Part shown: piece by piece, positions 5,853-62,811 of the stretch | How the letters are laid out: the number at the start of each line of letters is the position of its first letter | Position numbering within the stretch: the first letter of the stretch is position 1 | Virus record (IMG/VR): IMGVR_UViG_3300030060_002858 | Coordinates: 1 to 63,394 of that record | Length of the DNA: 63,394 nucleotides | Source of the DNA: a virus | Lineage: Duplodnaviria; Caudoviricetes | Reading direction: 5' to 3' (one strand) | Translations under genes and position numbers: made by a program | The notes under the pieces: generated by a model | The model's database searches: none | Told to the model about the DNA's origin: nothing | The model's input: the letters and a program-made list of their open reading frames with translations, nothing else

Positions 5853-6140
5853 ATGGAACAAAAACACGATCAGTTAGCAGGTGGTAATTGGAATGCACAT
5901 AAACCACAAGTATGGAAAAAATTAAGAGAGAAGCATAAAAAACATAAAGCATCAGGCAAAGGTGGTCCTTCAATGCCTGAAAAACATGTGCCGTATGGCG
6001 GTGCAGGCAAGGGTGACATGAATAGAATTACTAACCAAACCAAATATTCTTTGGGCCTAGATCTTATACGCCTTGCAAAAGATAAGGGTAAAGATTCTGA
6101 AGAATATAAAGAAGCCCTTGAGGCTTGGAGGAACGCTTGA
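5853..6140 (+). CDS. hypothetical protein (GKGDxxR motif)
   Basis: GGAGG RBS; GAGKGDMNR. Confidence 0.6.
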   Translation: MEQKHDQLAGGNWNAHKPQVWKKLREKHKKHKASGKGGPSMPEKHVPYGGAGKGDMNRITNQTKYSLGLDLIRLAKDKGKDSEEYKEALEAWRNA

Positions 6141-8581
6141 TCTGGCACAAACTAACAGAAGAAGAAAAGGACATTAGAATACAATCACAAATATCCTTTG
6201 AAGAAAGTATGTTAGACTATGGAAGATCAAAGTATTGGCGTGAATATGACCGTGCTCCAGACGAAGGAATACCTGAACAAGAGCTAATTGATTCTTCTGT
6301 TCGTGAATTACAAGACTCTTATCAAGAATGGATAGATAAGGTTTGCTCTTCTGCACGCTGCCCTAAATGGTTGTACCCTCTAATTGAACTGGGTGCTAAA
6401 AAAATGGCTGACGTAACAATGCGAGCTATTGTAAGGAACTGGTTCTCTTCTTCTTATTGGGGATACAACTGGCAGAGCAATCAAATTGTACCTCCTCTTG
6501 CTCAATCTGTTGCCAGTCAAATAGCACAGGATGCTTTAGATATTATTGGATTCCAAAGAGCAAAAGATAACAACAGAGATGAGTGGCTCAAGCAATCTAA
6601 GTTTATAAAAAACTGGACAACAAAAAGATGCAAAGCATTCTCACTTAAACTAGAAGAGAATGTAAAGCTTTCAGTAAAAAACAAACATGACTTTGGTCAT
6701 AACATGTTGCGCATTGCTGCCGCATCTAATGTAATTAAATTAGTTACGCACCGAACAAGAAGAGGAAAAACATTTAGAAACTTATTGACTGTTGAGTTTC
6801 ACGCTTCTGTACTAAAAGAGTTACACAAGAGACATGAATTTTTACAGAACAGTGCCTTAATATATAGGCCAATGTTATCTCGTCCTGTACACCACAAGCT
6901 AGAATACTCTGGGGGCTACGTAAATTCAAAACTTAGAAAGCCTGTAGTACAAAGATACAAGTCAAACTTCTTTGGAGAAAAACCAAAGGATCAAAAGTTT
7001 TCTGTTCCTTCTCAGCTGGTGTTAGATGGGCTTAATTCTATGATGGATACAGAGTGGTCTATCAATACAAGAGTTTATGATGTAATGAAAACTTTGTTTG
7101 AGAATAATTCAGGGGTAGCTAACTTGCCCTACTATTCTTTTGAAGAGTTTATGTATAATGAGGAGTACCCTAAAGATGGGACTAAAGAACAACAGGCTTT
7201 GTGGTGCCAGAAAAAAGAAGAAGCTTGGGGCAAATGGTATAAGCAAGAGCAGTCAAGAGGTAGGATGCTTGTTCGGCTTGAGCTTGCAAAGGATCTTATC
7301 GAGTGCGGTTGGTTCTACCATGTATACACTTGCGACTTTAGGGGCAGAGCCTACACTGTTTGCGAGCTTTTGTCTCCTCAATCTTCCGACACTGATCGTG
7401 GATTGATACAATTCCACACGCCACAAAAACTAACAGAACGTGGAAGGTATTGGCAGAAAGTAAACATCGCCAATCTTTTTGATCAAGATAAAGTATCTTT
7501 AGATGAAAGAGTTAAGTGGGCTGATGATAACTTTGAAATGTTTACACGCATTGCTAATGATCCCTATACAAATAAAGAATGGTTAGATAGTTCGCCAAAG
7601 AAAAACAAATCATTCCAAAGACTGGCTGCAATCTTTGATATTGTTAGAGAAGATGGCTACAGTAGTATCCCAGTAAACATTGATGGCAAATGTAATGGCA
7701 ACCAGCATTGGTCTGCTATCATGGGCGATCCGGTCATAGCAAAGCTAACAGGAGTTAGTCCCGAAGATGAGCCTCATGATCTATATCAACACGTTGCTGA
7801 TAACACAACTGAATACTGTGTAAGACATAAAAAAGAAAACCAATGGTTTGAAAACTTTCTTTCATACTGGAATCATAAGATTGAAAGAGGGGTTACCAAA
7901 AGAAGTACAATGTGTGAGCCTTATGGTATAACTTTTTATGGCATTCAAAGATACATAAAAGAAGAAGGCCACTTAGATTGGGTGTCTAGAGATAAAAGAG
8001 GAGGTGCTATTGTTGAACTGGCAAGAGCAATAAAAGCAAGCCTTGATCTTTCTTTGCAAGAACCAAACAAAGGTAAAGAATATCTTAAGTCTTCTGTAGA
8101 AGAAGCAAACAAAAAGAATGTTCATGTTAAATGGACTACACCCAGCGGATTTAAAGTTGTTCATTACTATAATAAACAACAAAGAAAGAGATCATTGGCT
8201 GCGTTGTTTAATAAAAAAGAGCTTGTGTTTTATGTAAGAACAAATGACGTAAGCCCAAGAGAAGCAACGCAAGCTATCTCGCCTAACTTCATTCATAGTT
8301 TAGATGCAGCTCATATGTTTTTAACTATTGATATGATTATCAAGACTCATGGACCTATAGATTTTTGCATGATACATGATTCTTATGGTAGTCATGCGAA
8401 TGATGTTGATATAATGAGAGACTGTCTCAGAAAAACATTTGCAGATATACATTCAGAAAACCAACTGGAAATTTTCAAGAATCAACTTGAAGAACAACTC
8501 GGTGTAGAGTTGCCACCAGTCCCAGCAAGAGGCAATTTTGATATTACATCAGTCTTAGAATCAGATTACTTCTTTGCATGA
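6125..8581 (+). CDS. T7-type single-subunit DNA-directed RNA polymerase (RNAP1)
   Basis: DFRGR; motif A DGKCNG; DLY; motif B RGVTKRSTMCEPYG; SPNFIHSLD; motif C IHDSY; C-terminal YFFA. The TTG start is uncertain. Confidence 0.97.
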   Translation: MEERLIWHKLTEEEKDIRIQSQISFEESMLDYGRSKYWREYDRAPDEGIPEQELIDSSVRELQDSYQEWIDKVCSSARCPKWLYPLIELGAKKMADVTMRAIVRNWFSSSYWGYNWQSNQIVPPLAQSVASQIAQDALDIIGFQRAKDNNRDEWLKQSKFIKNWTTKRCKAFSLKLEENVKLSVKNKHDFGHNMLRIAAASNVIKLVTHRTRRGKTFRNLLTVEFHASVLKELHKRHEFLQNSALIYRPMLSRPVHHKLEYSGGYVNSKLRKPVVQRYKSNFFGEKPKDQKFSVPSQLVLDGLNSMMDTEWSINTRVYDVMKTLFENNSGVANLPYYSFEEFMYNEEYPKDGTKEQQALWCQKKEEAWGKWYKQEQSRGRMLVRLELAKDLIECGWFYHVYTCDFRGRAYTVCELLSPQSSDTDRGLIQFHTPQKLTERGRYWQKVNIANLFDQDKVSLDERVKWADDNFEMFTRIANDPYTNKEWLDSSPKKNKSFQRLAAIFDIVREDGYSSIPVNIDGKCNGNQHWSAIMGDPVIAKLTGVSPEDEPHDLYQHVADNTTEYCVRHKKENQWFENFLSYWNHKIERGVTKRSTMCEPYGITFYGIQRYIKEEGHLDWVSRDKRGGAIVELARAIKASLDLSLQEPNKGKEYLKSSVEEANKKNVHVKWTTPSGFKVVHYYNKQQRKRSLAALFNKKELVFYVRTNDVSPREATQAISPNFIHSLDAAHMFLTIDMIIKTHGPIDFCMIHDSYGSHANDVDIMRDCLRKTFADIHSENQLEIFKNQLEEQLGVELPPVPARGNFDITSVLESDYFFA

Positions 8582-40318: not shown

Positions 40319-41325
40319 GCGCAGTAAATAAACTAAAAGAAATCATTGGCAGTAACTCACAGCCCAAGATTGAGCGAGATGATTCTTATGGACAGTCTTT
40401 AATCAATCGATCTGAAAACTGGCTAGCTACCCATGAATCATACGATAGTAAAACAAAACTAGAGGCTTGGGAAACAGAATTTAAAGATTGGGGTTTTACT
40501 TCTAACAATACTGAGTACTACTGGGAAACTCTAAAATCTCTCAGTCCTTTAGAAGGTCAAAAATTTCAAGAGTTTACAACTAATGATATTAGAACTAAAA
40601 TTGACTCAATGAGTTCCTTAGAAGAAAAGGAAAACTTCTTTAGAGACAACGCATATACGTGGCCTTCGTATGTTTTAAAAGATTTAGAAGGATACTTTAC
40701 TAATATTCGAGGAGCAAACGCGGGAAAAGAATTAGAAAGAAACAGATTAAATCAAATTATTGAATTAAAATCTTTTCTAAACGGTAAAACTTTTGACTTG
40801 AATCCTAATGTAAGTATTGAAGCACATACAGAAGATATGATTAAAGCCTATGACATGGGTTATAAAGAAGAAATTATTATAGATTCTAACGGAAGGGTAG
40901 CAATCCCCCTTGACGGAAACGAGACACCTATGTATACTCTACCTAGTCCTAACTTAAGCATGGAAGAAGAGTTTATTTCTCTTAATGATTTAAGGGGGGT
41001 TGTTAAAACTAGGTTTAAACCTATGCTTGAAACTAGTAGAAAAAAACAAAATGATCTAGAAAAACAAACACAAAAAGCACTCTTATCTAGATTTAAAACG
41101 GGAGAGATTCCTCAAGAATTTAAATCCAATGTTCTTATTGACGGACTTGGGACTGAACCAAACTCAGGCCAAAGAGCAAATCAATACATTCTTGAAAGCA
41201 TGGATTATAAATTAAAAAATAATATGTACCTTTCAATAAAAGATATGTTTATCGACTACAAAGAACAACTTAAAGATTTACATAGCAAGTTATCTAGGAG
41301 GTTAGAGGATGGAAATTATTCCTGA
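40315..41325 (+). CDS. hypothetical protein (putative internal virion protein)
   Basis: Translationally coupled within the internal virion cluster. Confidence 0.55.
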   Translation: MSAVNKLKEIIGSNSQPKIERDDSYGQSLINRSENWLATHESYDSKTKLEAWETEFKDWGFTSNNTEYYWETLKSLSPLEGQKFQEFTTNDIRTKIDSMSSLEEKENFFRDNAYTWPSYVLKDLEGYFTNIRGANAGKELERNRLNQIIELKSFLNGKTFDLNPNVSIEAHTEDMIKAYDMGYKEEIIIDSNGRVAIPLDGNETPMYTLPSPNLSMEEEFISLNDLRGVVKTRFKPMLETSRKKQNDLEKQTQKALLSRFKTGEIPQEFKSNVLIDGLGTEPNSGQRANQYILESMDYKLKNNMYLSIKDMFIDYKEQLKDLHSKLSRRLEDGNYS

Positions 41326-41698
41326 TTACGATACTCAATTTCAATCAATAGAAGCCCCAGCTCCAGTTCCTGTTCAAAGGGCGACTCAAGTAACAATTGA
41401 AGGCGGTATTTCTTTTGGGCAGTATAACGCAAATAATCCCGGATTAGATGCTATGTATAACATGGTAGGTAACCTGTTAAATACAGGGGCTACTCTATAT
41501 GAAAATATGACAAACCTTGGGTTTAAAAAAGCTGCTTTTGAGGCAGAGGAAAGAAGTAGAGAATTAAAAATGCAATTAGAAGAGCAGTATATGCGAAGTC
41601 AACTTGGTTATGAGCTTTTACAAGATGGCTATGCAGATCTTTTTCAACTAGGTTCTGGTGGCTATACCGGATCTATCATGATGGGAGGGATACAATGA
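41309..41698 (+). CDS. hypothetical protein (putative internal virion protein)
   Basis: GGAGG upstream; position in the cluster. Confidence 0.5.
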   Translation: MEIIPDYDTQFQSIEAPAPVPVQRATQVTIEGGISFGQYNANNPGLDAMYNMVGNLLNTGATLYENMTNLGFKKAAFEAEERSRELKMQLEEQYMRSQLGYELLQDGYADLFQLGSGGYTGSIMMGGIQ

Positions 41699-54400: not shown

Positions 54401-57400
54401 AGGAGATCCTACATTTGTTGGAACAGATGATCAACTAGAAGATGCACTTAGATTTGCTTTTAGAGATTTAGACGAAGAAAGATTAGATATTGACGAAGCT
54501 ATGAGTTTCTTTGGAGGAGAAAGAATTGCTTCAGAATCTTTAGAATTATTTACTAAAGGAACTGAAGAAGAGCTTTTAACATCACTAGGGCCAGCAATTG
54601 AAGACAATCCTGAGTTAGGATTAATGGTCAGAGGTCCAATAAGAAACTTAAATAAATTAATTAGAGAACAAAAAGTTCTTTCAGAAGAAGCTGGGGTAGC
54701 TATTAAGGCTATGCTATTTAGAGCAAATCAGTTAAATCCAGATATACTTCTAAATCTAAAGTTTGAATTTATTACAGAGCGATTAGAGGGAGTAGCCCAA
54801 GCAGAAAGAAAGGGAGATAATTTTACAATTAGACTAGGCTCTAACTTTAAAACTATTACAAAAGATAATCCTTTAACTGCAATTCAAATAGTTGCTCACG
54901 AACTAGCTCACGTTGCTAGGCTAAAATTTATTGCAGATAACTCTAGAGAATATAATGGGTTATTAGGACTTTGGCAAAGCGACGAAGGCAGGGACATGTT
55001 ACGAAAGGCTGTTCAAGCTTTTCATGGTGGAGTATTTACTTCTGAAGCTAAAAAAGAATATGAAAGATATTTAAATAATCCTGAAGAATTTATCGCAGGA
55101 TTTATGTCATACTTTCTTTTAGGAGACACAAATGTTGAGATTAGAGATTTAACTAAAAAACAAAAGGGAATGTTTAATGAGTTAACTTCTATTGTAAAAA
55201 GAATGATGACTTATGTTTCTAATATTTTAAACAATCTTCAAAATGCGTTTTACACTGGAAATGAAAAGTTTGATAAAGAGGTAAGAGCACTTGCTCTTCG
55301 AGTATGGGGACATGATGCAGCGACAGGAAAGCCTGCCCTAAGACAACTTGATTCTGGTCAAGTTGCAGATGCTACATATGGATGGAGTCAAAGATTTAAA
55401 GATACTAAAGAATTTGTAGTAGACCCTGATAAAGATTTACAAATAATTAAAGGACACAAAGAATTAGCTAGACTAAACTCAAAGGCTGAACTTACAGAAG
55501 AAGAAATTCTTACTAAACATAAAATCAATGACTTCTTATACGCAGAAGGTACTTATGCTCAAGAAAACTTTGGTTTGAATGGCCTATCACGCTCTGATTA
55601 TTTAGCAACTCTTCAACAGTTAAAAGAAAAATATCCATCTAAAAAACGAAGTGATTTAGAAAATGATTCTAGAAATAACGATGAATCTATTATTGATATA
55701 CGAGAGATACTTGCTCAAGGTACTAATAAAGAAAAGGCCACTGCTTTAGCTTACCTTATGGATGCTGTATCAAAAACATACGGAGATCCTATAGCTAAAG
55801 GTCTAGGTGCCATTGGAAACAGTATAGCAGATAGCATTCCTAATGTTAAGCAAGCAGCGGCAAAACAAGCATTATTTAACTTACTACTAGGTGATACCGG
55901 ATCGGGAGAAACATTTGGTGCTGAGTTCTTACTGCCTATTCTTATTACGCAAATGCTAGATGATAATATTGTTACTGCTACGGGTAATTATCTAAACACA
56001 GCAGGAACTCCTTCTGTTAGAACAAATATTCAAAAGCTAGAGACGTTCTCAACAAGTATTAGAACCAGTAAAAATCAAATTGCAGCTGCTCTTAGAGGTA
56101 TTACAGATGTAGCAAAGAGAACAGTATTTGAGTCGTTTGTTAGTGACACCGATAAAAAAGTTATGGCTAAGTTAGACAAACAGCTTATTACAAGTGTAAC
56201 TAAATTAAACGAAGGAGAGGCAGAGTTTACTTTCGATCTTTCAGAAGATGCATTAGGGGTAGCACTAAATGATAAACAAAAAGCAGTTATTCTAAAAGCT
56301 CTTGGAGAAATTAAAAATACGTTTACTCAAATGGCAGAAGATAATATTAGAGACGGAATATCTATTGGTGAATTTGGCGAAGGTTTTACGCAAGTAGTTC
56401 CATATCGTTTAGGCAATTCATTGCGTGCCGAAGATGTAAGAGCACCAGAGTTTAAAGATACAATGACTAGCTTAATTCAAAAAAGATTATCTCAAGGAAT
56501 AGAAAGCGGTCTTCTAGATGGAACAGTAATGGCTGCGGTAGGACTTATCCCGCACTTTGGAAATAACACAGCAGCAAGAGCAGATCTAGAAAGACTTAAT
56601 GCTCAGTATCCTCAATTGGTAGATGCTATTTTAGCCGAAGCAGTTAAACAAGAGGGAGATACTGAAAGACAAACTAAAGAAAAAGTTAACCTATTAAAAG
56701 CAAAACTAAATGATACCGCTAATGTAGATTCTTTTGTAGAGTTACAAGTAGGTACTGGGCGTTTCTTAAACAAACTTGCACAGGGAACAATCACTTTAGA
56801 TAGCATATTTACTAGGGCTAGTCAACGTATTGCTTTTGTAACAGAGTATAAGACTGCTGTAGAAAATGCTAACAAAAGATCAGCAGATGCTCGAAATAGA
56901 TTAGATGCTTTAACAAAAGAAAGTGGAGACATTCGCTCTAATACATTCTTTAGTCCTACCACAAAAGATACTCCTGTAGCAGCCTTTGATAGAGCAGCTG
57001 ATAACCCAATTGAATTTATTTTTAGAAACTTTCACAAGAGAGCTTCTAGGGGAGCGTACTATCCTAACGATAACTGGGCAATCCCTAGTGTAAGAGAAGC
57101 ACTAGAAGCTAATGAAGATATCCAAAAATATTTTGTAACAGACATGGCAGCATTAGCTGAAAATGCAAAACAAGGTCTATTTAATGATATTGCTGAAAAG
57201 AAAATGTTTAGAGAGTTCGGAGTACACGGAAACATTGAGCATGTATTAACTCTTATTAGTAGCGTAGCCTTTAGCGATTATTCAGTAATGGCTCCAGACG
57301 GAACGTCAATAGAAGGTCAACGAGTAAAACAAGTTGTAGAAGTATTAAGAAACAAACATAATGCTTTAAGAAATATTATTGAAAAACCAGAAGGAACTAA

Positions 57401-59141
57401 TACGGGTTCAGTAGAAAGTTCTATTGTAGATTATGCTAATGCTGCAACAAGAATTGCATATGGAGGCAACCTATTCCTTGCTACTACTATTGTAGAAAAC
57501 GGATACAGTGCAGTAGACGAACTAATCGGAAGAGGAAATATTGTAGGATTTTTAAGAAGTGCTTTAGCTCCCTTTAGTCAACTTACAAATAGAACAGAAA
57601 GAGCAAGAGTATTAAAAGATTTTGCTTACCTAATTGAGTCAATGACACAAGGATTTTTACCTGAATACGAAAGACCGTTAGGTACAGAAGGAGATAGTAC
57701 GGTATTAAAAGCACTCAAGGGCTTGGGTTCTGCAAACATGAGGCTTGCTAAGTGGCAACTTAAAAACATTACCGCAGCCCGTGCAATAAATATTAGATCT
57801 TTTATTCAGTCATATTTAAAACCAAACAAAGATGGAACGTCTAAGTTAAGTGAATTAGCTAGATTGTTAGAAGAATCTAATCTTTCTAAATTACCAATTG
57901 AAGAACAAGAACCAGCTTTAAAAGGAATACTAAGAAAGGCAAAGATTGGAACAAACAACTTACCAATAATTTCTTACCTTATTAAAGCAGGATTATTAGA
58001 ACCTACTAGATTAAGTATGCTTTTAGAAATGATGCCTGCCGAAGGACGTTACAGTCCATTTGAAATGACTCAGGAATTGTTTACCACTAAATCTCCTAGA
58101 ACTAATGCAAAAGAGTTTCAACAAAAACTTGACATTATTACAGCCCTTAAAAATATTGAAAGAAGATATGTAGAAGAAGCTATTCTAGCTCCCAATGCAT
58201 TTGATACTGCTACTGGTCCTAGAGGAACATTTGAACAAATCTTTGAAATCTATCGTAGATATCCCGTTCTCTTTGCAAGCCAACAAGTAATTAGAAAGTC
58301 AAGCAGGGTTGGAGTAGTTAGAGCAGGTTTTAGTTTAACTTCCTTGATTCTTTTAGATATGCTTTATATGGCTGCTCTATCAATGGCAGCAGGTAAACCA
58401 CTTGAAGATGTTGTAAAGGATTATGAAGAAGCTCCTCTAGCTAGTGCAGGCAAGCTTCTTTTAAGAACTCCAATCTTTGGTAGATGGTTAGCTATGGTTG
58501 GTCCAGTTTTAGCTAAAGGTCTAGAAGCTATTGAAAAAGGTCGTATGCCATCTGGATATGAACTTACTCAAGCTTTCCAGTCTGGTTCTGGTTTTATTCC
58601 TGTAGCAGCTTTAGGAGCAGCAGCAGGTTCTCTTCTAACAACATTCCAAACTATAGGGGGCGTATTTGGACTTAATGAGATGCCTAGAGGACAAGAACTT
58701 GTTAACTCTTTACGATTAATTCCAGCAGGAGACGCAGCAATTAGACTGGCTATCTTCTCCTTAGCGGGAGATAGTATTGAAAGGAAGAAAAGACGAGGAC
58801 CAAGCGGAGCAGGATCTTATGGAGGACAGCAGCCAGTCACAGGGCTTCACTATGGAATGCACAGAAACGATGCTGCTTTTACTTGGGAAAGCATGTACAA
58901 GGACATGATGACTCCTATTCTAAATGGCGAGTTACCTCAGGTTGTAAAAGAGTATTATAAAGACATAGAACAAATGGATGCAATGCAAGAGCTGGGAGCC
59001 ACGCCCGCCTCTCCACAACCCGCCGCGCCGCCCGCAAAACCCGCGCCGTCGCAGCCAGAGATCACTACACCTAAAGTAGATCCTGTAGACTCTATACTAA
59101 ATCAAGGACCTACCAAGGCACCTGATACTTTACTCGAATAG
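45462..59141 (+). CDS. giant (4559 aa) polyvalent virion protein with T7/N4-like RNAP motifs and a zincin peptidase motif
   Basis: AAGGAG RBS; uninterrupted 13.7-kb ORF; DRTASG, SDFY, REIFKVPVMRRIYG, SGRTYPLNTTGLNPLG and HELAH..EEFIA motifs. Confidence 0.7.
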   Translation: MTTQGINKWATEPLPFYMDNQEEMRESVGQYNDFVQGLNPLTDGDNALNVPDQLVVDLNTQELVRGNYGITEAMALMSARGYFGGMFEDNQYQQKYSANMQLGMYRGDKYKEGDLLKFGADEEKLLRYYAKKSPWNLSRLSDPFIDETLDGVEDMWDAPILNNLNDSPNDLMEAEAPPDWSPQEALKVLQLRDPEMYAVYANSLGASNLEQIVGEAKNPYDFFYTLTDTIQTAALNTTIAKWYEDASNTEIALEYARNFIIEGIVNDPDLAASLGITAGLTTIGSIAGLKAGVIATLAYKIPKTLYQGVKYVKFINMIRKAATTTIRYMPENIGPTLIQKIPAMKNFSRGGFVQKHLIANRIGDAGEGLVTGGLAEAGNQWRQSTAGVIDEFSYGGIFKEALFEAALSPAINPAIGGIYSLGGGAVNLSYMVSDSVAAKVIGEKGHKAFSRFIDTTKKYLNADDAIKRLENAQLSLELSSQVNDLTLEGTEVEIQDDEAKPDRPDGILSIILGAIWDQTGLSKGDFLTTVKEILADFQAEAADPSHPRNKLGVDQEILLSEIAQEVVNRNRDVILEANDGDTSSFEKILGWTQHHLRLASDAKKEGKTYKEYTEKIIADNEEWKLLAPQVLEAVKEKMGDKFDSSTTEEKLDVALEYMQETILKQQQAIRDLDTSTKDKEETADGLEEELEAAEPKPDPKPEDAPTGGEPKGEDDKPKRKPPPGDGPIERRAELIERLKRMKERAEKAKAEIQEKLDKGFKGVNRKTKENIVELGRKIDEELAFVEGELESFLETHGLEDGEVKDSIQLMKTLETELNVLKETLSKDITDTKDGILFGFVRLNKLRAAREKAGLLLFRDLNLENSKRTEEGKPELSKLPWDKTQEDTREAWKELAELTKGDESKAAQRIRQFVNDLESGKEEGITMGGVKNTFTNYMNMLGTVMKKHEERYNKREDYKKHVSLFKQYKAARKNYQRLMSSIYRSETLKDIQQFNAIQLQQTGLREKKEQESVLNARRALFNEFIAEKEASGEDITMEEFLNFLHPYSEQAQTEAAAIERDASKGKETLTIEEAKRIEGKEYQSVKDQLKYLSIGKLSGINKGGRFKYVRGNWEHQHSDSDILGTSYDPEFVLNESNYGKELDTDVVFTRDLRSDLEAWIELEQKILAIASHTDPSKGIAAWRIHAALPPYFRDFLGLGPYVVFGRGNILGAENSALMPTEALDHNSLDLTDEKSISELQRYQHLLRYDPQKILAIIRAWKDRGLAKIDGWEARETSFILDELSKEMQNEGDPNSAANLFYTQKLLERVHNQSRAINMANWTKRQGEGGGYIIAVDPDTGFPTEFTNSAGTYKREALYHAKERLQFLFGTRRFTELQQVAKSLGLLTEISRTKEDGRTEIIIRDREGNVRADVVEYLTEQIGEQTDINITDLGNGNEDYASAQIAGYGIVDFMSQKPMPAVQQRSVVLDKDGNTVPTESNEDSETASLPTDIRLPQEGETNAAMPIPVMKLAELIQNFKARERMRYILSKDTFTDAERAAYKEWVEAKWSDVLAGMDPDPTGENAQIFVVPQIVGGSLHEAVMSRAEAKEFLLELMLDIPRNAEAFIHDQVTRKRGSALMFNEGQGEKEINVLDKEGNIVTKKIKDLNVEGGLMFDLSHGDHMLVPLGRIGEIMAIEAMGPQFAGLTDIVIDKVVQYSDAARKEGTLDELLAFENWSDRTASGVFEMKLLSLAGDADSTIEIEVDGKTKKVNAPKLLDMIRDGVIEPGTKAESDFYLSTAIIAAPLFAMGKKGGLQTLFDVINKNDIRSVKDLQEKEAGLSEGDKKKLKLLREIFKVPVMRRIYGGSKPNFDVEFSEGGKGYEALKKAGMTSEEDIAALKKVLFSGNGGATHISKTILIDYALGVNDRTKYLVQKYLGIDQTRSVPLLDTWKELVKLDNKALSAELERSQTHIRLLEDSLRQKYEIDNPADLTFEQWKKTKGYNKRFEKAKAYLEEQEKASNPIHPGTVAYETFKKILQTTDQLSAESIGYFRALNILNSQEYRLNVDRLQFVAQRVLGLTDFSVQDFMGFEQHALYQLMLPTATSGRTYPLNTTGLNPLGISLERVARMQPFVKDGVRYNDFIDYVERNPGLDEAEFKKDLEDYLTNHDGADAFGAFDLEDPSLRKFETREEAEAALEDLMIKQEMMLWSSYDKPPKEVFKDYTAEDSDEGFFNNLLTQWHQHSEQRHLTLKEEIAFEQAEADRMIADGKRPTDSPVLQLKNKAGGLVNKKLVEASEGEFRYLPYHVSERNPSSVMIHTAGQRGPLSMRPRFKERQYYDMGLLSLQKRHVQDRITKAMGPIETIRTNADSLTEEDAMISGVNIGHAPAWDSNKLPQVLPTLPRAIAADLRTDMGQRAAKIYYEVSIWAEERGLADKLKEDPENFVRFYIIREIEEERKRQLRRTRESNITNENDIIAARNKWIGGLHDISRYSRDLKDPEGRRGLQLFTERQSFAAVNPAEEGELYMDLLVNVADENNPDGFLFTRSLLDDAFKLGPVPTGERIIITPENVSDEKTMEEIFEFKDLNLESWAVQNADFNKFLAAQLFTEAIGKAMLEFEGGKYKSVAFTPDQWEFAIDPEDRKPLIALAKQMVMEMPSFELTVGIEESLYNDDSKISTYRMTINREGVAPEKGKERDKKAVPTQQRNVFGAATGFGMQVMTRTKLKSKKAKLALTPEHRMQLFSILENAQTMQGITLSNWLNKGLGVKLTEDGQIVRAVPIQDRVADAMGYTARPIRDAAINEAEALRRVSSVDGESSVRMIDDPLTSVRGARVNVVDLDYYARDNSSWGDGSINTAWLESYVSPITKLIHMLDRSGIQAGSELADLKLELQSLIALTREQDNMSSVVVRLIALKLEDPSLDFRKNKIKMFFTDAERNGDDFNTAINKADSIILKIKKHTSDYGVTRKLPGYYEARQFITTQEYSPANFEETLLAFKKYLGDPTFVGTDDQLEDALRFAFRDLDEERLDIDEAMSFFGGERIASESLELFTKGTEEELLTSLGPAIEDNPELGLMVRGPIRNLNKLIREQKVLSEEAGVAIKAMLFRANQLNPDILLNLKFEFITERLEGVAQAERKGDNFTIRLGSNFKTITKDNPLTAIQIVAHELAHVARLKFIADNSREYNGLLGLWQSDEGRDMLRKAVQAFHGGVFTSEAKKEYERYLNNPEEFIAGFMSYFLLGDTNVEIRDLTKKQKGMFNELTSIVKRMMTYVSNILNNLQNAFYTGNEKFDKEVRALALRVWGHDAATGKPALRQLDSGQVADATYGWSQRFKDTKEFVVDPDKDLQIIKGHKELARLNSKAELTEEEILTKHKINDFLYAEGTYAQENFGLNGLSRSDYLATLQQLKEKYPSKKRSDLENDSRNNDESIIDIREILAQGTNKEKATALAYLMDAVSKTYGDPIAKGLGAIGNSIADSIPNVKQAAAKQALFNLLLGDTGSGETFGAEFLLPILITQMLDDNIVTATGNYLNTAGTPSVRTNIQKLETFSTSIRTSKNQIAAALRGITDVAKRTVFESFVSDTDKKVMAKLDKQLITSVTKLNEGEAEFTFDLSEDALGVALNDKQKAVILKALGEIKNTFTQMAEDNIRDGISIGEFGEGFTQVVPYRLGNSLRAEDVRAPEFKDTMTSLIQKRLSQGIESGLLDGTVMAAVGLIPHFGNNTAARADLERLNAQYPQLVDAILAEAVKQEGDTERQTKEKVNLLKAKLNDTANVDSFVELQVGTGRFLNKLAQGTITLDSIFTRASQRIAFVTEYKTAVENANKRSADARNRLDALTKESGDIRSNTFFSPTTKDTPVAAFDRAADNPIEFIFRNFHKRASRGAYYPNDNWAIPSVREALEANEDIQKYFVTDMAALAENAKQGLFNDIAEKKMFREFGVHGNIEHVLTLISSVAFSDYSVMAPDGTSIEGQRVKQVVEVLRNKHNALRNIIEKPEGTNTGSVESSIVDYANAATRIAYGGNLFLATTIVENGYSAVDELIGRGNIVGFLRSALAPFSQLTNRTERARVLKDFAYLIESMTQGFLPEYERPLGTEGDSTVLKALKGLGSANMRLAKWQLKNITAARAINIRSFIQSYLKPNKDGTSKLSELARLLEESNLSKLPIEEQEPALKGILRKAKIGTNNLPIISYLIKAGLLEPTRLSMLLEMMPAEGRYSPFEMTQELFTTKSPRTNAKEFQQKLDIITALKNIERRYVEEAILAPNAFDTATGPRGTFEQIFEIYRRYPVLFASQQVIRKSSRVGVVRAGFSLTSLILLDMLYMAALSMAAGKPLEDVVKDYEEAPLASAGKLLLRTPIFGRWLAMVGPVLAKGLEAIEKGRMPSGYELTQAFQSGSGFIPVAALGAAAGSLLTTFQTIGGVFGLNEMPRGQELVNSLRLIPAGDAAIRLAIFSLAGDSIERKKRRGPSGAGSYGGQQPVTGLHYGMHRNDAAFTWESMYKDMMTPILNGELPQVVKEYYKDIEQMDAMQELGATPASPQPAAPPAKPAPSQPEITTPKVDPVDSILNQGPTKAPDTLLE

Positions 59142-59425: not shown

Positions 59426-59970
59426 TACTATTAGATACTTGCATCCCACAGCTAAATCCTTTTGACGTACATCGATTAGAACTAGAAAATGGATACCTGC
59501 ATAGCACTGGAGGTGTAGCTACGGAAACCCGAGTAGTTGAAATAGATTATTTTGATAATAGGAGAATAGTCACAAACTTGTTTGATTCTCAAGGAACCGC
59601 AACACTTACTAACATAACTAACAATAATCATCAAGCAAGAAAAGTTAAATACCGACATCATGTAAAAATACCATATGGTGATTATGTAGTCACTCAACAC
59701 GATGACGATTACGAAGTATGTGCAATTGATGGAGAAGTTATTTTTTATGTAGAGGTTCCACTGGCTAACGGAGCAACACACGAAGTTGATTGGGTATACA
59801 CTATTGAGATTGAACCATACGGTGACTTAGACGGTGACGGTAGAATCCGAGGATATGATCTTGGTTTGTTTTTTGCTGGCTGGGGACTGCCCGGTGAAAC
59901 TGACTTTAACAATGACGGTATTACCGATGGAGAAGACATGGGTATTCTATTTGAGAACTGGACCGGATAA
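59422..59970 (+). CDS. protein with a C-terminal dockerin-like tandem Ca-binding repeat
   Basis: GDLDGDGRIRGYDLGLFFAGWG and TDFNNDGITDGEDMGILFENWTG; AAGGAG RBS. Confidence 0.75.
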   Translation: MILLDTCIPQLNPFDVHRLELENGYLHSTGGVATETRVVEIDYFDNRRIVTNLFDSQGTATLTNITNNNHQARKVKYRHHVKIPYGDYVVTQHDDDYEVCAIDGEVIFYVEVPLANGATHEVDWVYTIEIEPYGDLDGDGRIRGYDLGLFFAGWGLPGETDFNNDGITDGEDMGILFENWTG

Positions 59971-60090
59971 ATCGACTAGGGGGTCACGAATTTATCTGAG
60001 GTGATGTATAGTATTGCGCTGTTGCAGTACCCCCCGTAACCCTGTTCGAAAGGATTTGGAATTATTGTTCTTAGCTGGATACTGTTCGTC

Positions 60091-60210
60091 ATGATGGTTG
60101 TTGTCATGGTACTGGCAACCATCTCACCGTTGTTCTTTTCTTCTGAAGAGAACGATGAGGATTATCTGGAACCGGAAGAAGTAGACCCGGAGACTGGAAG
60201 GTACCACTAA
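60091..60210 (+). CDS. possible small membrane-anchored acidic peptide
   Basis: MMVVVMVLATISPLFFSSEENDEDYLEPEEVDPETGRYH; start uncertain. Confidence 0.3.
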   Translation: MMVVVMVLATISPLFFSSEENDEDYLEPEEVDPETGRYH

Positions 60211-60315
60211 CACACACCGCCTCACGCTCCCTTTACTGGGAGCATGAGGTATTCCGCAGGACTAACCCCGTCAAGGTGACGGACTAATCCTGTTACTCTA
60301 ATGGAGGGTATCCAT

Positions 60316-60702
60316 ATGGATGCTACCATTACCGTACATCGGCGTAACACTGGAACGCCGATTGAGTTCAGGACGAACGTCCTGTTCGCGTCTTCTTTCG
60401 AGAAGGCACTTCAGGATGGCAACGCCACGGAGCTGGAGCAGATGATCGTCAAGATCAAGAAGCTTCACGACTACGTGCCGGAGTCCGAAGACAGCTTCGT
60501 CTCGGAACCTCATGTCTTCGACACGATTCGTGCTGACGGACATCGATGGTACTGTGTCGCTCGTACCTGCGTCACGGCTCAGGAGTTTGAGCATCTTGAG
60601 AGAGGTCTGGAAATCATGTGGGTTCCCGAACCCTACCAGACCCTCACCGACTGGACCTTGGACATCAAGGAAGCGTCGAAGGATCTCAAGCTGTTCATCT
60701 GA
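60316..60702 (+). CDS. hypothetical early protein (GC-rich codons)
   Basis: GGAGG RBS at 60303-60307 favours ATG 60316; strong G/C third-position bias. Confidence 0.7.
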   Translation: MDATITVHRRNTGTPIEFRTNVLFASSFEKALQDGNATELEQMIVKIKKLHDYVPESEDSFVSEPHVFDTIRADGHRWYCVARTCVTAQEFEHLERGLEIMWVPEPYQTLTDWTLDIKEASKDLKLFI

Positions 60703-60972
60703 ACTCACCAGCCCTCACTGTTCCCGAAAGGGAATGGTGAGGCTTAAGGATTGTGGTTGCAAAGGATGCAACCAATAGAGATGTCTTCTCTAACACAAGG
60801 TAGTGTGGTGTAGAGAAGAGAGAATGTATGCAGACCCGTACTTGTTGTGCTGGGTCGAGGCCCTATTCGAAAGGATGTAATTTGGGCCTGTTCGTGTTTG
60901 TGGATCTAGCACGTATGCTAGGTTCGGTTCCTAACCCATCTGGTCTCAGAAGAGACAGAAAGAATTTACTCT
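60703..60972 (+). ncRNA. hairpin-dense intergenic element (candidate structured RNA, leader or promoter array)
   Basis: Seven consecutive inverted repeats; see findings. Confidence 0.45.
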
Positions 60973-62811
60973 ATGAGTAAGCTCAAGATGGCTAAGGACT
61001 TGAGGCACAGGATCCGCAGCTATGCGGACTCCCTCCTCCAGTCCAAGCTCAAGTGGTGGCTGGAGGACAAGAAGTCCGAAAGCTGGATCATGTCCGAGTT
61101 GTCCATCCCGGTGTTCATGCAGTTCCGGGATGACCTCACCCTCGATACCACTCCCATCAAGATCGATGGCAAGGAGTCTCGTCTCCTTGAGGTGGACGAT
61201 CTCAAGTCCGTTCAGCGAGAGATCTTCATCGCCCTCGATCAGAACATGGAGCGGTTGGAGTTGGACGGCTGGGAAGCTCCCCAGCGTCGTCTGGCTCATC
61301 GCACGCCTCCGACCCTCGATGGTCAGTTCGAGCCTGTGGTCGCTCGCAGGGGGGATCTCAAGATCTCCTCGGAGCAGAAGCAGGCCATGCAGCATCTCAC
61401 CAACACGCCTTGGGTCATCAACCAGAAGAACTGGGATGACATCAAGGAGTTCAGGGAGAGTCTGTCGGACGAGGATCGTAACAAGATCTTCTACGACTAC
61501 GAGGACGAAGAGGTCTCGGCTCTGATGACGGAAGAGGAACAGAGCGGCGACAAGCTCGCTTCTCTCTTCGACCGCATCGGAGACACGATCTTCTTCTTGG
61601 TCACCCGGAGGATGGATGAGGCGGGGCGTATGTATCCCTGTCCCATGCATCCGGTCTACAGCCGGTGGCTGCGGTGCGTCTTCCAGTTCCCCTCCCAAGA
61701 GTTGACGGAGGACGGCTGGAAGTTCCTGCGGAAGCACATCAAGGAGTCCTACGGACTCTGCAACGATGCCAAGCGGGATGCGTGGGCGAGGAACTGCGAC
61801 CGGGATCCCCAGAAGCTCTTCACCGAGAAGGGCAAGAAGGGTGCTGATGAGCTGGCTGCTGCACGTGGCTGGCTCGAGGCACGGGAAACCGGAGCCACTG
61901 GCTACACCGTCTCCAGAGACTTCGTGGCTCAGGGCATGGGACTGATCGCGGCAAGAGAAGGATGCCCGTGGCATCACGATCTCGTCAACGTCAATTCCGA
62001 CCAGTTCGTCTCGGCACACGATCGGTTCTCCGGTCGTATGCAGGACATGATCCGTAACTTCAGGATCCACAGCTTCGATGCTCTCAAGGGCATCTCCAAG
62101 AGCTGCATCACCCCCGGCATGTATGGGGGTGGCGGGAGTGCGATCTCCTGCAAGCTCACGGACATGTCCAAGGATGCCTTCGGTGAGTGGAACTTCGGCG
62201 AAGACGGGAAGAAGTTGCCCGAAATCGACCCGATCCTGCTCGACTACATCGGTAAGGACTTGTCCCCCGATGAGCAGATGGATGCTATCTTCAGCCTCTC
62301 GAAGAAGCTGACCCGCATCCTCCACTCGACCTTCCCGTTCCTCAGTCCCTATCAGGAAGCGGTTCGCCGCCACTGGAAGGGACACATCCAGAACGGCAAG
62401 TTCCCGGTCTTCACCGGAACCGATGGCTACGAGTACCACTCCTCTCCGTTCAACGTGAACAAGAAGTTGACCCGTTCGGTCAGGTTCTCTCGCTACCGCG
62501 ACGGCAAGAGGGTGGGGCAGCCCAGCGTTCAGTGCTGGCTGCACCAGCTGGAAGAGTCCGGCACGCCCATGTGTGCCAAGATCATCTTCATGCTGGACAG
62601 GTTGATCGCGATTCGGATCATCCTTGCACTCGCCAAGCGGGGCATTCATGTCTGCTCCATCCACGATGCGTTCCTCGTTCACCCGAACTACGGATACATC
62701 TTGGAGCAGGTGGCGACCGAGGCGTACAACTCCGTCATGTCGGAGAACGCCGATGTCATCGGTAGGATCTACCACGCCCTGCCGAACGATGCTGTCCTCC
62801 TGAGGGCCTAG
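60973..62811 (+). CDS. second, highly divergent T7-superfamily single-subunit RNA polymerase (RNAP2)
   Basis: Motifs in canonical order: AMQHLTNTPWVIN; MDEAGRMYP; motif A RDFVAQG; motif B KGISKSCITPGMYG; AKIIFMLD; motif C IHDAF. Confidence 0.85.
   Translation: MSKLKMAKDLRHRIRSYADSLLQSKLKWWLEDKKSESWIMSELSIPVFMQFRDDLTLDTTPIKIDGKESRLLEVDDLKSVQREIFIALDQNMERLELDGWEAPQRRLAHRTPPTLDGQFEPVVARRGDLKISSEQKQAMQHLTNTPWVINQKNWDDIKEFRESLSDEDRNKIFYDYEDEEVSALMTEEEQSGDKLASLFDRIGDTIFFLVTRRMDEAGRMYPCPMHPVYSRWLRCVFQFPSQELTEDGWKFLRKHIKESYGLCNDAKRDAWARNCDRDPQKLFTEKGKKGADELAAARGWLEARETGATGYTVSRDFVAQGMGLIAAREGCPWHHDLVNVNSDQFVSAHDRFSGRMQDMIRNFRIHSFDALKGISKSCITPGMYGGGGSAISCKLTDMSKDAFGEWNFGEDGKKLPEIDPILLDYIGKDLSPDEQMDAIFSLSKKLTRILHSTFPFLSPYQEAVRRHWKGHIQNGKFPVFTGTDGYEYHSSPFNVNKKLTRSVRFSRYRDGKRVGQPSVQCWLHQLEESGTPMCAKIIFMLDRLIAIRIILALAKRGIHVCSIHDAFLVHPNYGYILEQVATEAYNSVMSENADVIGRIYHALPNDAVLLRA

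What the first reader, a model, noticed from the sequence alone, without database searches (positions are those of the whole stretch)
6125..62811. Candidate three-polymerase transcription system in a T7-like phage
Seen: T7-superfamily RNAP motifs occur at three loci, namely 6125..8581 (canonical), 60973..62811 (divergent and short) and about 50200-51800 inside the 4559-aa virion protein. Established: T7-like phages normally encode one RNAP, while N4-like phages use a giant virion RNAP followed by a minimal RNAPII. Inference: this genome has T7-type portal, capsid, tails, terminase and primase but may run an N4-like relay. In that model the injected virion enzyme or host RNAP transcribes the GC-rich early block, RNAP2 transcribes the tRNA/accessory block, and RNAP1 transcribes replication and late genes. 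I do not know of a described phage with this combination.
Basis: partly seen in the sequence, partly recalled or inferred. Interest (0 to 1): 0.93.

Follow-up and report, generated by a model that had tools for sequence, protein, structure and literature searches.

The report
T7-like phage with extra RNA polymerases
An uncultured marine T7-like phage carries, besides its normal RNA polymerase, a second minimal polymerase of the phage-N4 type in a conserved GC-rich early block, and possibly a third inside a giant injected virion protein, which would be a way of running phage gene expression not described before.

Summary

The GC-rich 60-63 kb block is not a chimera. The order giant protein, GC-rich island with RNAP2, AT-rich block, RNAP1 recurs in three other viral contigs, and a contig of a public run bridges the junction. 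Island genes almost never use the four A-ending codons (AAA, ATA, AGA, TTA) that the phage's own tRNAs read, which fits immediate-early expression.

The third polymerase is unproven. The 4559-aa protein has no cysteine, like N4 vRNAP. It has one significant N4-like motif B, and weaker motif A and TxxGR candidates in the right order. The AlphaFold model failed (pLDDT 35), profile comparisons are not significant, and no motif C was found. I put a polymerase core there at about 0.55.

The relay model is inference. I found no described phage with this combination.

The parts
6125..8581 (+). RNAP1, a canonical T7-type single-subunit RNA polymerase (818 aa)
   Evidence: PF00940 E 6.9e-81. PHROG 414 E 3.9e-157. 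Homologues at 80% identity in G002, 67% in G003 and 51% in G001. At most 28% identity to any of 50,697 deposited phage records.
60973..62811 (+). RNAP2, a minimal 612-aa single-subunit RNAP and single-chain counterpart of N4 RNAPII gp15 plus gp16
45462..59141 (+). Giant 4559-aa cysteine-free protein, the last of the internal-virion-protein gene cluster; presumed ejected protein
   Evidence: 0 Cys in 4559 aa against about 56 expected. Relatives have 0/4719, 0/4763 and 2/4662. N4 vRNAP has 0/3500. Full-length homologues exist in G001, G002 and G003. No Pfam, PHROG or PDB sequence hit.
50007..51947 (+). Candidate polymerase core inside the giant protein (aa 1516-2162), unproven
   Evidence: The best collinear motif chain found automatically is R1522-D1717-K1835, and 0 of 300 shuffles reach its score, but motif B dominates that score. 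This is the best of 23 windows in hhalign scans against N4-like vRNAP and RNAP2-family profiles, with P 0.0035-0.0064 before correction. The ESM Atlas lists PF00940 and N4 vRNAP clusters first, at scores of only 0.76-0.79. The AlphaFold2 model failed.
50949..50999 (+). Motif-B-like segment LREIFKVPVMRRIYGGS (R1831, K1835, Y1843, G1844)
   Evidence: Aligns with N4 vRNAP LKRGIAKNPLTITIYGS. R, FKVP, R and YGG are invariant in 4 giants. 17.1 bits, rank 1 of 4559, 0 of 500 shuffles.
50604..50639 (+). Motif-A candidate WSD1717RTASGVFEM
Evidence: D, A, S and G are invariant in 4 giants. It fits the DxxASG consensus of the RNAP2 family. It ranks only 8th of 4559 at -0.64 bits.
59971..63394 (+). GC-rich (50-62% GC) island holding a 39-aa ORF, a 133-aa ORF (60301-60702), RNAP2 and a cut ORF (63198-63392); runs off the contig end
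   Evidence: GC profile. Equivalent islands occur in G001, G002 and G003. GC3 is 0.79 against 0.26, and AAA, ATA, AGA and TTA are nearly absent. An X1 contig continues 4.7 kb past 63394.
59968..59995 (+). Single-copy conserved element TAAATCGACTAGGGGGTCACGAATTTAT at the AT-to-GC boundary; candidate early promoter, 5' leader or genome end
   Evidence: Found once per genome in the window, G001, G002 and G003, with at most 2 mismatches to the 15-mer, directly after the last late gene.
60219..60282 (+). Two hairpins upstream of the 133-aa island ORF; the second has a 6-bp stem and a 3-nt loop
   Evidence: z -3.89, 0 of 200 shuffles as stable. The stems differ but stay paired in G002 and G001.
62835..62860 (+). 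Terminator-like hairpin followed by a T run, just after RNAP2
   Evidence: 11-pair stem, 8 GC pairs.
2478..4335 (+). Five phage tRNA genes (Lys-UUU, Ile-UAU, Met-CAU, Arg-UCU, Leu-UAA)
   Evidence: ARAGORN. The four A-ending codons they read make up 19-64% of their codon families in AT-rich genes and 0-6% in island genes.
39497..45465 (+). Genes for 273-, 336-, 129- and 1256-aa proteins between TerL and the giant; presumed internal virion or ejection proteins
   Evidence: No family hits. The 336-aa and 1256-aa proteins have 0 Cys. Conserved in order in G001, G002 and G003.

Best explanation
The window is most of the genome of an uncultured marine podovirus. It has a T7-type replication and structural layout and encodes more than one single-subunit RNA polymerase.

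Shown:
- RNAP1 is a standard T7-type enzyme.
- RNAP2 is a complete but minimal polymerase with a reduced N-terminal domain. It corresponds in one chain to the two subunits of phage N4 RNAPII.
- RNAP2 sits in a short GC-rich island. In all four related genomes the island lies between the end of the late genes (giant protein, spanin-like gene) and the AT-rich tRNA and accessory block that precedes RNAP1.
- The island genes avoid exactly the codons read by the phage's own tRNAs.

Inferred:
- The island is the immediate-early unit, translated with host tRNAs before the phage tRNAs exist.
- RNAP2, perhaps with island-encoded cofactors as in N4, then transcribes the tRNA and accessory block and RNAP1. 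RNAP1 transcribes the replication and late genes.
- The 4559-aa cysteine-free protein is ejected with the DNA like N4 gp50. It probably (about 0.55) carries a very divergent N4-vRNAP-like polymerase core (aa about 1516-2160) that makes the first transcripts, possibly from the single conserved element at 59968-59995. That would make the programme independent of host RNA polymerase.
For: - RNAP1.
- RNAP2 fold and motifs.
- RNAP2 relation to N4 RNAPII: 6dt7_B is the only PDB sequence hit below E 0.001 among 20 listed, with two collinear stretches. hhalign gives 97.9% to gp16 and 64% to gp15. PHROG 2051.
- Conserved order and co-occurrence: 3 of 3 related contigs examined (G001, G002, G003) hold a giant homologue, a GC-rich island with an RNAP2-family gene, and a PF00940 RNAP.
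- The junction is bridged in run X1, and partly in an independent study, X2.
- Codon partition: AAA 1/54, ATA 0/49, AGA 3/54 and TTA 0/70 in island genes, against 586/913, 159/850, 453/738 and 412/1215 elsewhere, with matching tRNAs.
- Giant protein: 0 Cys, as in N4 gp50, gp51 and gp52. Position at the end of an unannotated gene cluster after TerL.
- Motif B at 17.1 bits, 0 of 500 shuffles; motif A and TxxGR candidates rank 8th and 3rd and lie in order.
- The motif A-B stretch is the best of 23 windows against two RNAP profiles. The Atlas lead points the same way.
- No sigma-70-like match on the + strand between 59491 and 62593, which covers the island's leader.
- Hardies et al. (PMC4819975, passages read) state that IVP-D homologues host cytoplasm-destined domains, including the N4 vRNAP.
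Against: For the giant protein:
- The AlphaFold2 model of aa 1400-2599 is unusable (pLDDT 35, pTM 0.24, 4-row alignment).
- No Pfam, PHROG or PDB sequence hit for it or for two relatives.
- hmmsearch with a 46-sequence N4-like vRNAP profile gives only E 0.077, over motif B.
- hhalign probabilities are 0.5-3%. The control, N4 vRNAP against the RNAP2 family, reaches 87.7%.
- The window-scan P values (0.0035-0.0064) do not survive correction for 23 windows.
- Motif A and TxxGR scores lie within the shuffled range, and no motif C is detectable.
- Three different motif-A candidates could be argued by eye (D1655, D1717, D1744).
- The Atlas scores of 0.76-0.79 are below the tool's 0.9 line.

For the relay:
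- No promoter class could be defined.
- The genome ends are unknown. There is no terminal repeat, and both contig ends cut ORFs, so calling the island the first DNA in is an inference.
- G001 looks like a co-assembly of two related phages, so its right-hand link from island to RNAP1 counts for little.
Confidence: 0.5

Rival explanations
1. A two-polymerase phage. The giant protein is only an ejection and channel protein (an enlarged T7 gp16 / IVP-D type protein with a zincin-like HExxH module) and has no polymerase activity. Host RNA polymerase transcribes the GC-rich island, whose host-like codon usage suits an early host-dependent phase. RNAP2 and RNAP1 then take over.
For: Every homology and fold test for a polymerase in the giant protein was negative or non-significant. 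Motif C was not found. T7 itself uses host RNAP for its early genes (established knowledge). A host-like composition of the island fits host-dependent expression. HExxH is invariant in 4 giants.
Against: The motif-B match is far beyond chance and is of the N4 type, with K-x-P and IYG. Motif A and TxxGR candidates lie in the right order and spacing. The Atlas lists ssRNAP and N4 vRNAP clusters first, and 9 of the 10 best hits that carry a family share a family or clan with the best of them. No sigma-70-like site lies ahead of the island on the + strand; this scan is crude and the host is unknown.
Confidence: 0.36
2. The GC-rich island is a horizontally acquired, exchangeable cassette. Its RNAP2 serves something other than the main temporal programme, for example transcription of a few cassette genes, priming, or a backup against host defences that target RNAP1.
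For: Composition differs sharply from the rest of the genome. RNAP2 is only 35% identical between the window and G002, although the neighbouring 133-aa ORF is 89% identical and RNAP1 80%, which suggests exchange or fast evolution. The RNAP2 family has 32 representatives in a library of 1.84 billion cluster representatives, most of them about 600 aa and of unknown context.
Against: The island holds the same position in 4 of 4 genomes, including G003, whose proteins are 22-78% identical. The boundary element is conserved. The avoidance of phage-tRNA codons is too specific for a mere foreign origin.
Confidence: 0.12
3. The 60-63 kb block is an assembly chimera joined to a T7-like phage contig.
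For: An abrupt GC jump from about 0.38 to 0.55-0.62 at about 60,000-60,100. The block lies at the contig end. There is no terminal repeat.
Against: The same junction, with the same boundary element, occurs in G001, G002 and G003, which are diverged sequences from other assemblies. X1 record 2 (1709 nt) spans 58697-60405 with 2 differences, and depth is 11.3-12.1 on both sides. X2, another study, has a contig starting at 59965 with AT-rich sequence before it.
Confidence: 0.01

Closest known systems
Coliphage N4 (Schitoviridae) transcription programme: injected vRNAP gp50, then RNAPII gp15/gp16, then host RNAP
   Same: A giant cysteine-free virion protein encoded next to other Cys-free proteins. 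A minimal second polymerase homologous to gp15 plus gp16. All enzymes are of the single-subunit family. An N4-type motif B in the giant protein.
   Different: The genome is of T7 type, not N4 type. RNAP2 is one chain, not a heterodimer. A full T7-type RNAP is present where N4 uses host RNAP for late genes. The giant's polymerase core is not detectable by sequence profiles built from 46 N4-like vRNAPs. N4-type hairpin promoters are not established: one 6-bp/3-nt hairpin was seen.
Phage T7 and Autographiviridae
   Same: One RNAP gene ahead of primase-helicase and DNAP. T7-type portal, scaffold, capsid, tail tube A and B, and TerL, all on one strand.
   Different: 63-71 kb rather than about 40 kb. 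Five tRNAs, RNR and thyX. A second polymerase. Internal virion protein genes after TerL, one of them 4559 aa. RNAP1 is at most 28% identical to any deposited phage RNAP.
N4 RNAPII (PDB 6dt7; gp15 269 aa plus gp16 404 aa)
   Same: Collinear homology: RNAP2 133-244 to gp15 158-268, including DxxGR, and RNAP2 249-588 to gp16 7-365, including motifs A, B and C. Similar total size (612 against 673 aa).
   Different: Fused into one polypeptide. Only 19% identity in the hhalign alignment. R627-equivalent is Lys372. Cofactor dependence is unknown.
T7 gp16 / IVP-D family of ejected internal virion proteins (Hardies et al., PMC4819975, passages read)
   Same: The last and largest gene of the internal-protein cluster, mostly helical in the low-confidence model, Cys-free. 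That paper reports IVP-D homologues hosting embedded cytoplasm-destined domains, N4 vRNAP among them.
   Different: No sequence match to T7 gp16 or any PHROG was obtained. The size is 3.5 times that of T7 gp16 (1318 aa, recalled).

Membership tests
T7-type single-subunit RNAP (Pfam PF00940), RNAP1 | Match above the Pfam gathering score over the polymerase domain | tested here: met
   272.8 bits against a cut-off of 22. PHROG 414 matched end to end.
Single-subunit RNAP superfamily, RNAP2 | Palm, fingers and thumb fold shared with T7, mitochondrial and N4 RNAPs | tested here: met
Single-subunit RNAP superfamily, RNAP2 | Catalytic motifs T/DxxGR, A (Asp), B (K, Y, G) and C (Asp) | tested here: met
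   R219 and D316 are invariant. K376, Y384, H564 and D565 are at least 90% conserved in 29 sequences. The T7 residue numbers are recalled.
Single-subunit RNAP superfamily, RNAP2 | Pfam PF00940 match at the curated threshold | tested here: not met
   0 families at E <= 0.1. Membership rests on fold and profile-profile evidence.
N4 RNAPII (gp15/gp16), RNAP2 | Sequence homology to both subunits, in order | tested here: met
   hhalign to gp16 97.9%, E 4.4e-13. To gp15 64%, E 6.6e-5 (the weaker half). PHROG 2051 E 1.6e-8, C-terminal part only.
N4 RNAPII (gp15/gp16), RNAP2 | Heterodimer of two separately encoded subunits | tested here: not met
   One 612-aa ORF, and about 600-aa single chains across the family.
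N4 RNAPII (gp15/gp16), RNAP2 | Dependence on gp2 and SSB cofactors, and activity on single-stranded templates | not testable with these tools
   Needs biochemistry. The island's small ORFs have no family hits.
N4-type virion RNAP (gp50), giant protein | Sequence homology of a central domain to mini-vRNAP | tested here: not met
   PDB phmmer and profile searches found no hit. hmmsearch with a 46-sequence profile gives E 0.077. hhalign gives at most 3%.
N4-type virion RNAP (gp50), giant protein | Polymerase fold of the central domain | tested here: inconclusive
   The AlphaFold2 model has pLDDT 35 from a 4-row alignment.
N4-type virion RNAP (gp50), giant protein | Motif B (R/K-x3-K-x7-YG) | tested here: met
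   R1831, K1835, Y1843 and G1844. 17.1 bits, 0 of 500 shuffles. Invariant in 4 giants.
N4-type virion RNAP (gp50), giant protein | T/DxxGR, motif A Asp and motif C Asp | tested here: inconclusive
   R1522 ranks 3rd and D1717 8th, in the right order, but their scores are within noise. The motif C candidate D2158 ranks 67th.
N4-type virion RNAP (gp50), giant protein | Very large, cysteine-free, encoded with other ejection proteins | tested here: met
   0 Cys in 4559 aa. N4 gp50 has 0/3500, gp51 0/644 and gp52 0/150.
N4-type virion RNAP (gp50), giant protein | Packaged in the virion and injected | not testable with these tools
   Needs virion proteomics.
T7-like (Autographiviridae-type) genome | Own RNAP plus T7-type primase-helicase, DNAP, portal, tail tube A and B, and TerL, in co-linear order on one strand | tested here: met
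   PHROGs 414, 239, 17, 449, 446, 457 and 38. ORF map.

The most novel reading that the evidence does not exclude
A lineage of marine T7-like podoviruses runs a cascade of three single-subunit RNA polymerases and never needs the host enzyme. A 4559-aa cysteine-free ejected protein carries a polymerase core so diverged from N4 vRNAP that only motif B is recognisable, and it fires from one conserved promoter-like element at the head of a GC-rich island. The island is written in host-type codons and yields a fused N4-RNAPII-like enzyme. That enzyme switches on the phage tRNAs and the T7-type RNAP, which then expresses an AT-rich genome that is translated well only once the phage tRNAs are present. 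Codon usage together with the tRNAs would act as a translational timer layered on the polymerase relay.
Probability: 0.3. Interest if true: 0.92.

Novelty: new variant of a known kind. Interest (0 to 1): 0.74.

Why it matters
T7 and N4 are the two textbook ways in which podoviruses use single-subunit RNA polymerases, and they have been treated as separate designs. Here the T7 enzyme and an N4-RNAPII-type enzyme sit in one genome in a fixed arrangement, in four related genomes. This shows that the modules combine. It also gives a natural single-chain version of the N4 heterodimer.

If the giant protein also transcribes, the injected-polymerase strategy is older or more widespread than Schitoviridae. 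It could then be hidden in other giant virion proteins that escape profile searches.

The sharp split between island genes in host-type codons and the remaining genes in codons read by the phage's own tRNAs makes a long-standing idea directly testable: that phage tRNAs time late translation.

RNAP2 (612 aa) and its roughly 30 family representatives are compact new polymerases of possible use for in vitro transcription.

Tried and rejected
- **Assembly chimera:** rejected.
- **Terminal repeat or circular overlap of the window:** none.
- **Promoter discovery:**
  - Genome-wide direct repeats and exact k-mers gave no repeated promoter-like motif.
  - An intergenic 9-mer search suggested GGGTKCAAGATAAT, but this gives 12 matches against 12.6 expected, so it was dropped.
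  - TTCGAAAGGAT (2 copies in the island) is absent from G001 and G002.
- **Giant protein searches that found nothing usable:**
  - Pfam and PHROG on the window's giant, and Pfam on the G001 and G003 giants.
  - PDB sequence searches, single and profile.
  - tblastn of aa 1400-2599 against the phage collection: no match.
  - The Atlas with 1200 aa: no usable hit.
  - The two word-index searches returned, besides the window's own protein, three proteins: two are pieces of the G002 and G001 giants, and the third is a 561-aa fragment from elsewhere.
  - The viral-contig scans recovered only G001 and G002.
  - The metagenome scan gave one 354-nt partial match. The genome-contig scan gave none.
- **hhalign of the giant region:** against N4 mini-vRNAP, a 46-sequence N4-like profile, the RNAP2 family and a merged profile, probabilities were 0.5-3%.
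- **Motif A candidates:** my first candidate by eye (LMFD1655LSHGD) is not conserved in G003 and ranks 1326th. EVD1744G, which hhalign preferred, has indels after it.
- **PSSM control on other window proteins:** invalid, because the cysteine-free background inflates any Cys. It is not used.
- **RNAP2:** no tblastn match in 50,697 phage records. Viral scans with the single protein and with A8 found nothing.
- **Sequencing runs:** no RNA holder listed. All runs laid were contigs, so no molecule ends could be seen. X3 and X4 hold only 150-300-nt pieces.
- **Papers:**
  - PMC4819975 and PMC3821669 were read as passages (find mode).
  - For the rest, I saw only the search listing and the start of each abstract.
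  - The claim that the combination is not in print rests on those four searches of open-access text.
  - Supplements were not asked for.
Full report
**What the window is**

The window is the whole held record: one contig of 63,394 bp. It has no terminal repeat, and ORFs are cut at both ends. All large ORFs lie on the + strand.

PHROG and Pfam scans give a T7-type layout:
- thyX, 1382-2065
- five tRNAs, 2478-4335
- a DUF932 protein
- RNAP, 6125-8581
- primase-helicase, 11057-12772
- DNA polymerase, 13410-15107
- ribonucleotide reductase
- portal, 23480-25066
- scaffold
- capsid, 27495-28799
- tail tube A and B, 28886-32312
- a beta-helix tail fibre, 32322-36191
- TerL, 37839-39533
- four unannotated genes, 39497-45465
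- a 4559-aa ORF, 45462-59141
- a spanin-like gene

GC is about 0.35-0.44 up to about 60,000. It then jumps to 0.50-0.62 and stays there to the end of the contig.

RNAP1 is at most 28% identical to the RNAP of any of 50,697 deposited phage records. RNAP2 and the giant's central part have no tblastn match there at all. The runs that hold the sequence are marine metagenomes. This is therefore an uncultured marine lineage.

**RNAP1**

RNAP1 is a canonical T7-type enzyme (PF00940 at 272.8 bits; PHROG 414 end to end).

**RNAP2**

Pfam finds nothing in RNAP2. Other searches do:
- PHROG 2051 matches its C-terminus (E 1.6e-8). I verified that PHROG 2051 is the family of N4 gp16 (E 5e-172) and that PHROG 2166 is the family of gp15.
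- The only PDB sequence hit below E 0.001 is 6dt7_B, N4 RNAPII, in two collinear stretches over motif A and motif C.
- The word-index search found 5 close homologues. The exhaustive search found 32 cluster representatives at E <= 0.001, most of them about 600 aa.

In a 29-sequence alignment, R219 (DxxGR) and D316 (motif A) are invariant. K376 and Y384 (motif B) and H564 and D565 (motif C) are at least 90% conserved.

Profile-profile comparison aligns RNAP2 249-588 with N4 gp16 7-365 (probability 97.9%, E 4.4e-13). It aligns RNAP2 133-244 with gp15 158-268, including DxxGR (probability 64%, E 6.6e-5).

RNAP2 is therefore a complete minimal polymerase that corresponds, in one chain, to the N4 RNAPII heterodimer.

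**The GC-rich block is genuine**

I examined three related viral contigs. All three show the giant protein followed by a GC-rich island with an RNAP2-family gene; in G001 and G002, which run across the junction, an AT-rich block and RNAP1 follow.
- **G002** (57 kb) is collinear with the window. Its giant protein ends at 29,881, followed by the spanin-like and 182-aa genes. The island with a 133-aa ORF (89% identical) and RNAP2 (35%) follows, at 0.51-0.58 GC. Then come thyX and RNAP1 (80%) at 42.7-45.1 kb.
- **G003** (62.8 kb, 93% complete by CheckV) has RNAP1 at 67% identity, a 4662-aa giant at about 26%, and an RNAP2-family gene at 22%. It is GC-rich at both contig ends.
- **G001** (82 kb) shows giant, then island (RNAP2 65%), then an AT-rich block, then RNAP1 (51%). 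It also carries second, more diverged copies of tail A and B and TerL, so it is probably a co-assembly of two related phages. I count only its left junction.

Read evidence agrees. In run X1, which is possibly the source sample, a 1709-nt contig spans 58,697-60,405 with 2 differences, and depth is 11.3-12.1 on both sides. Another X1 contig runs 4.7 kb beyond the window's 3' end. In X2, from a different study, a contig covers 59,965-60,520 and continues upstream into AT-rich sequence.

The identical giant protein is recorded on a 71,266-nt contig. The window therefore lacks roughly 5-8 kb between 63,394 and position 1.

**What distinguishes the island**

GC3 is 0.79 in the three island ORFs and 0.26 in 19 other genes. 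The five phage tRNAs are Lys-UUU, Ile-UAU, Met-CAU, Arg-UCU and Leu-UAA. Use of the four A-ending codons they read differs sharply:

| Codon | Island genes | Other genes |
|---|---|---|
| AAA (Lys) | 1/54 | 586/913 |
| ATA (Ile) | 0/49 | 159/850 |
| AGA (Arg) | 3/54 | 453/738 |
| TTA (Leu) | 0/70 | 412/1215 |

My inference is that the island is translated before the phage tRNAs are available, that is, immediately early, in a host that decodes these codons poorly.

**Sequence features at the head of the island**
- At the AT-to-GC boundary lies a single-copy element, TAAATCGACTAGGGGGTCACGAATTT. It is present once in each of the four genomes, directly after the last late gene.
- About 45 nt later a C-run follows that can pair with the G-run. 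Then come a GAAAGGA Shine-Dalgarno-like site and a small hydrophobic ORF.
- Two hairpins precede the 133-aa ORF (z -3.9; 0 of 200 shuffles as stable). One has a 6-bp stem and a 3-nt loop. The stems change but stay paired in G002 and G001.
- The consensus scan finds no sigma-70-like site on the + strand between 59,491 and 62,593.

These features are compatible with a phage-polymerase promoter and leader, or with a genome end. I could not decide between them.

**The giant protein: evidence for an ejected, polymerase-bearing protein**
- **No cysteine.** It has none in 4559 residues, against about 56 expected from the rest of the proteome. The relatives have 0/4719, 0/4763 and 2/4662. The upstream 1256-aa and 336-aa proteins also have none. 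N4 gp50, gp51 and gp52 have none either. PMC3821669 (passages read) relates the lack of Cys in N4 vRNAP to its passage through the tail and the periplasm.
- **Gene position.** It sits at the end of the gene cluster after TerL.
- **Precedent.** Hardies et al. report that IVP-D homologues host cytoplasm-destined domains, including the N4 vRNAP (PMC4819975, passages read).
- **Motif B.**
  - The segment LREIFKVPVMRRIYGGS (aa 1830-1846) aligns with N4's LKRGIAKNPLTITIYGS.
  - Its R, FKVP, R and YGG are invariant in four giants at about 26% overall identity.
  - It scores 17.1 bits against a matrix built from the N4-like vRNAP, RNAP2 and RNAP1 families. That is rank 1 of 4559, and 0 of 500 shuffles reach it.
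- **Order of motifs.** An automatic search for the best collinear chain of four motifs picks R1522 (NFKARERM), D1717 (SDRTASG) and K1835. These rank 3rd, 8th and 1st for their motifs, and 0 of 300 shuffles reach the chain score.
- **Window scans.** The stretch around aa 1549-1938 is the best of 23 windows in hhalign scans against the N4-like vRNAP profile (P 0.0064), the RNAP2-family profile (P 0.065) and a merged profile (P 0.0035).
- **ESM Atlas.** For aa 1500-2200 it lists PF00940 clusters (ranks 1, 2, 17) and N4 vRNAP-domain clusters (ranks 4, 12, 21) among named clusters, with scores of 0.76-0.79.

**The giant protein: evidence against**
- The AlphaFold2 model of aa 1400-2599 is unusable (pLDDT 35, pTM 0.24). 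Only four alignment rows were available, because the apparent extra homologues were pieces of G001 and G002.
- No Pfam, PHROG or PDB sequence hit was found for this giant. Pfam also finds nothing relevant in the G001 and G003 giants.
- hmmsearch with the 46-sequence vRNAP profile gives E 0.077.
- hhalign probabilities are 0.5-3%. The control, N4 vRNAP against the RNAP2 family, reaches 87.7%.
- The chain score is almost all motif B. The motif A and TxxGR scores (-0.64 and 0.90 bits) are within the shuffled range.
- No motif C is detectable. My candidate FD2158 is invariant but ranks 67th.
- The window-scan P values do not survive correction for 23 windows.

I therefore put the presence of a polymerase core at about 0.55. 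An invariant HExxH motif (H3146-H3150) shows that the protein carries other modules too.

**Mechanism**

Shown: two functional-looking polymerases of different families, in a fixed order relative to a compositionally distinct island, in four genomes.

Inferred:
- The island is the immediate-early unit.
- RNAP2 drives the next class, namely the tRNAs, the accessory genes and RNAP1.
- RNAP1 drives replication and late genes.
- The giant ejected protein may supply the very first transcription.

No promoter classes could be defined, and no expression data exist. The assignment of templates to enzymes is therefore untested.

The main rival is a two-polymerase phage whose island is read by host RNAP and whose giant protein is only an ejection protein (0.36). 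A mobile-cassette reading is fed by the fast divergence of RNAP2: 35% identity against 80-89% for its neighbours in G002.

**Comparison and novelty**

The system works like N4 in using a minimal RNAPII-type enzyme and, possibly, an injected giant polymerase. It is not an N4-like phage, RNAP2 is not a heterodimer, and a T7-type RNAP replaces N4's use of host RNAP.

Four full-text searches found no description of a T7-like phage with a second N4-type polymerase. The nearest discussions are the N4 reviews (search listing and start of abstract only) and the two papers I read in passages.

I class the finding as a new variant of a known kind. The scan's earlier notes on it all come from this same window.

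Noticed in passing
window 59968-59995 (also G001 reverse strand 32198, G002 30781, G003 59355): A single-copy element, TAAATCGACTAGGGGGTCACGAATTT, sits directly after the last late gene. It is conserved in four genomes whose proteins are only 22-80% identical. A downstream C-run can pair with its G-run. It is a candidate early promoter and leader, or a genome end.
   Followed up: partly
window 2478-4335 versus 60301-63392: The four A-ending codons read by the phage tRNAs (AAA, ATA, AGA, TTA) are nearly absent from the GC-rich island genes (4 of 227 codons in those families) and common elsewhere (19-64%). GC3 is 0.79 against 0.26. This suggests a translational timing device and a host that is poor in these tRNAs.
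   Followed up: yes
window 45462-59141; also 40315-41325 and 41695-45465: There are no cysteines in the 4559-aa, 1256-aa and 336-aa proteins. The same holds for N4 gp50, gp51 and gp52. This looks like a signature of proteins ejected through the periplasm.
   Followed up: yes
window 54891-54914 (aa 3144-3151 of the giant): The zincin-like AHExxH motif is invariant in all four giant proteins. No family hit. Its function (self-processing, or attack on the cell wall or a host protein) is unknown.
   Followed up: partly
window 60219-60282: Two hairpins lie ahead of the 133-aa island ORF, one with a 6-bp stem and a 3-nt loop. The stems differ but stay paired in G002 and G001. This could be an RNA leader or an N4-style DNA hairpin promoter.
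   Followed up: partly
window 60703-60972: A dense run of stable hairpins lies upstream of RNAP2 (z -4.75 and -3.18; 0 of 200 shuffles as stable). RNAP2 has no obvious Shine-Dalgarno sequence by eye.
   Followed up: partly
G001 (IMG/VR record of L001), whole 82 kb: The record carries two diverged copies of tail tube A and B, TerL and small genes (72-81% against 39-50% identity to the window). It is probably a co-assembly of two related phages, although CheckV rates it 100% complete. Its RNAP1 is split over two frames.
   Followed up: partly
window 37063-37708: Three small genes (88, 51 and 74 aa; one is DUF6321) are 73-100% identical in G001, and two of them 81-98% identical in G003, far above their neighbours. 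In the second half of G001 they sit between portal and scaffold. They look like a mobile or strongly constrained cassette.
   Followed up: no
window 60973-62811 versus G002 31987-33795: RNAP2 is only 35% identical between the window and G002, while the adjacent 133-aa ORF is 89% and RNAP1 80% identical. The second polymerase has either been exchanged between lineages or evolves much faster.
   Followed up: partly
window 59422-59970: A 182-aa protein with two dockerin or EF-hand-like Ca-loop repeats at its C-terminus. No family hit. It is present in G002 (53%) and was not found in G001 or G003.
   Followed up: no
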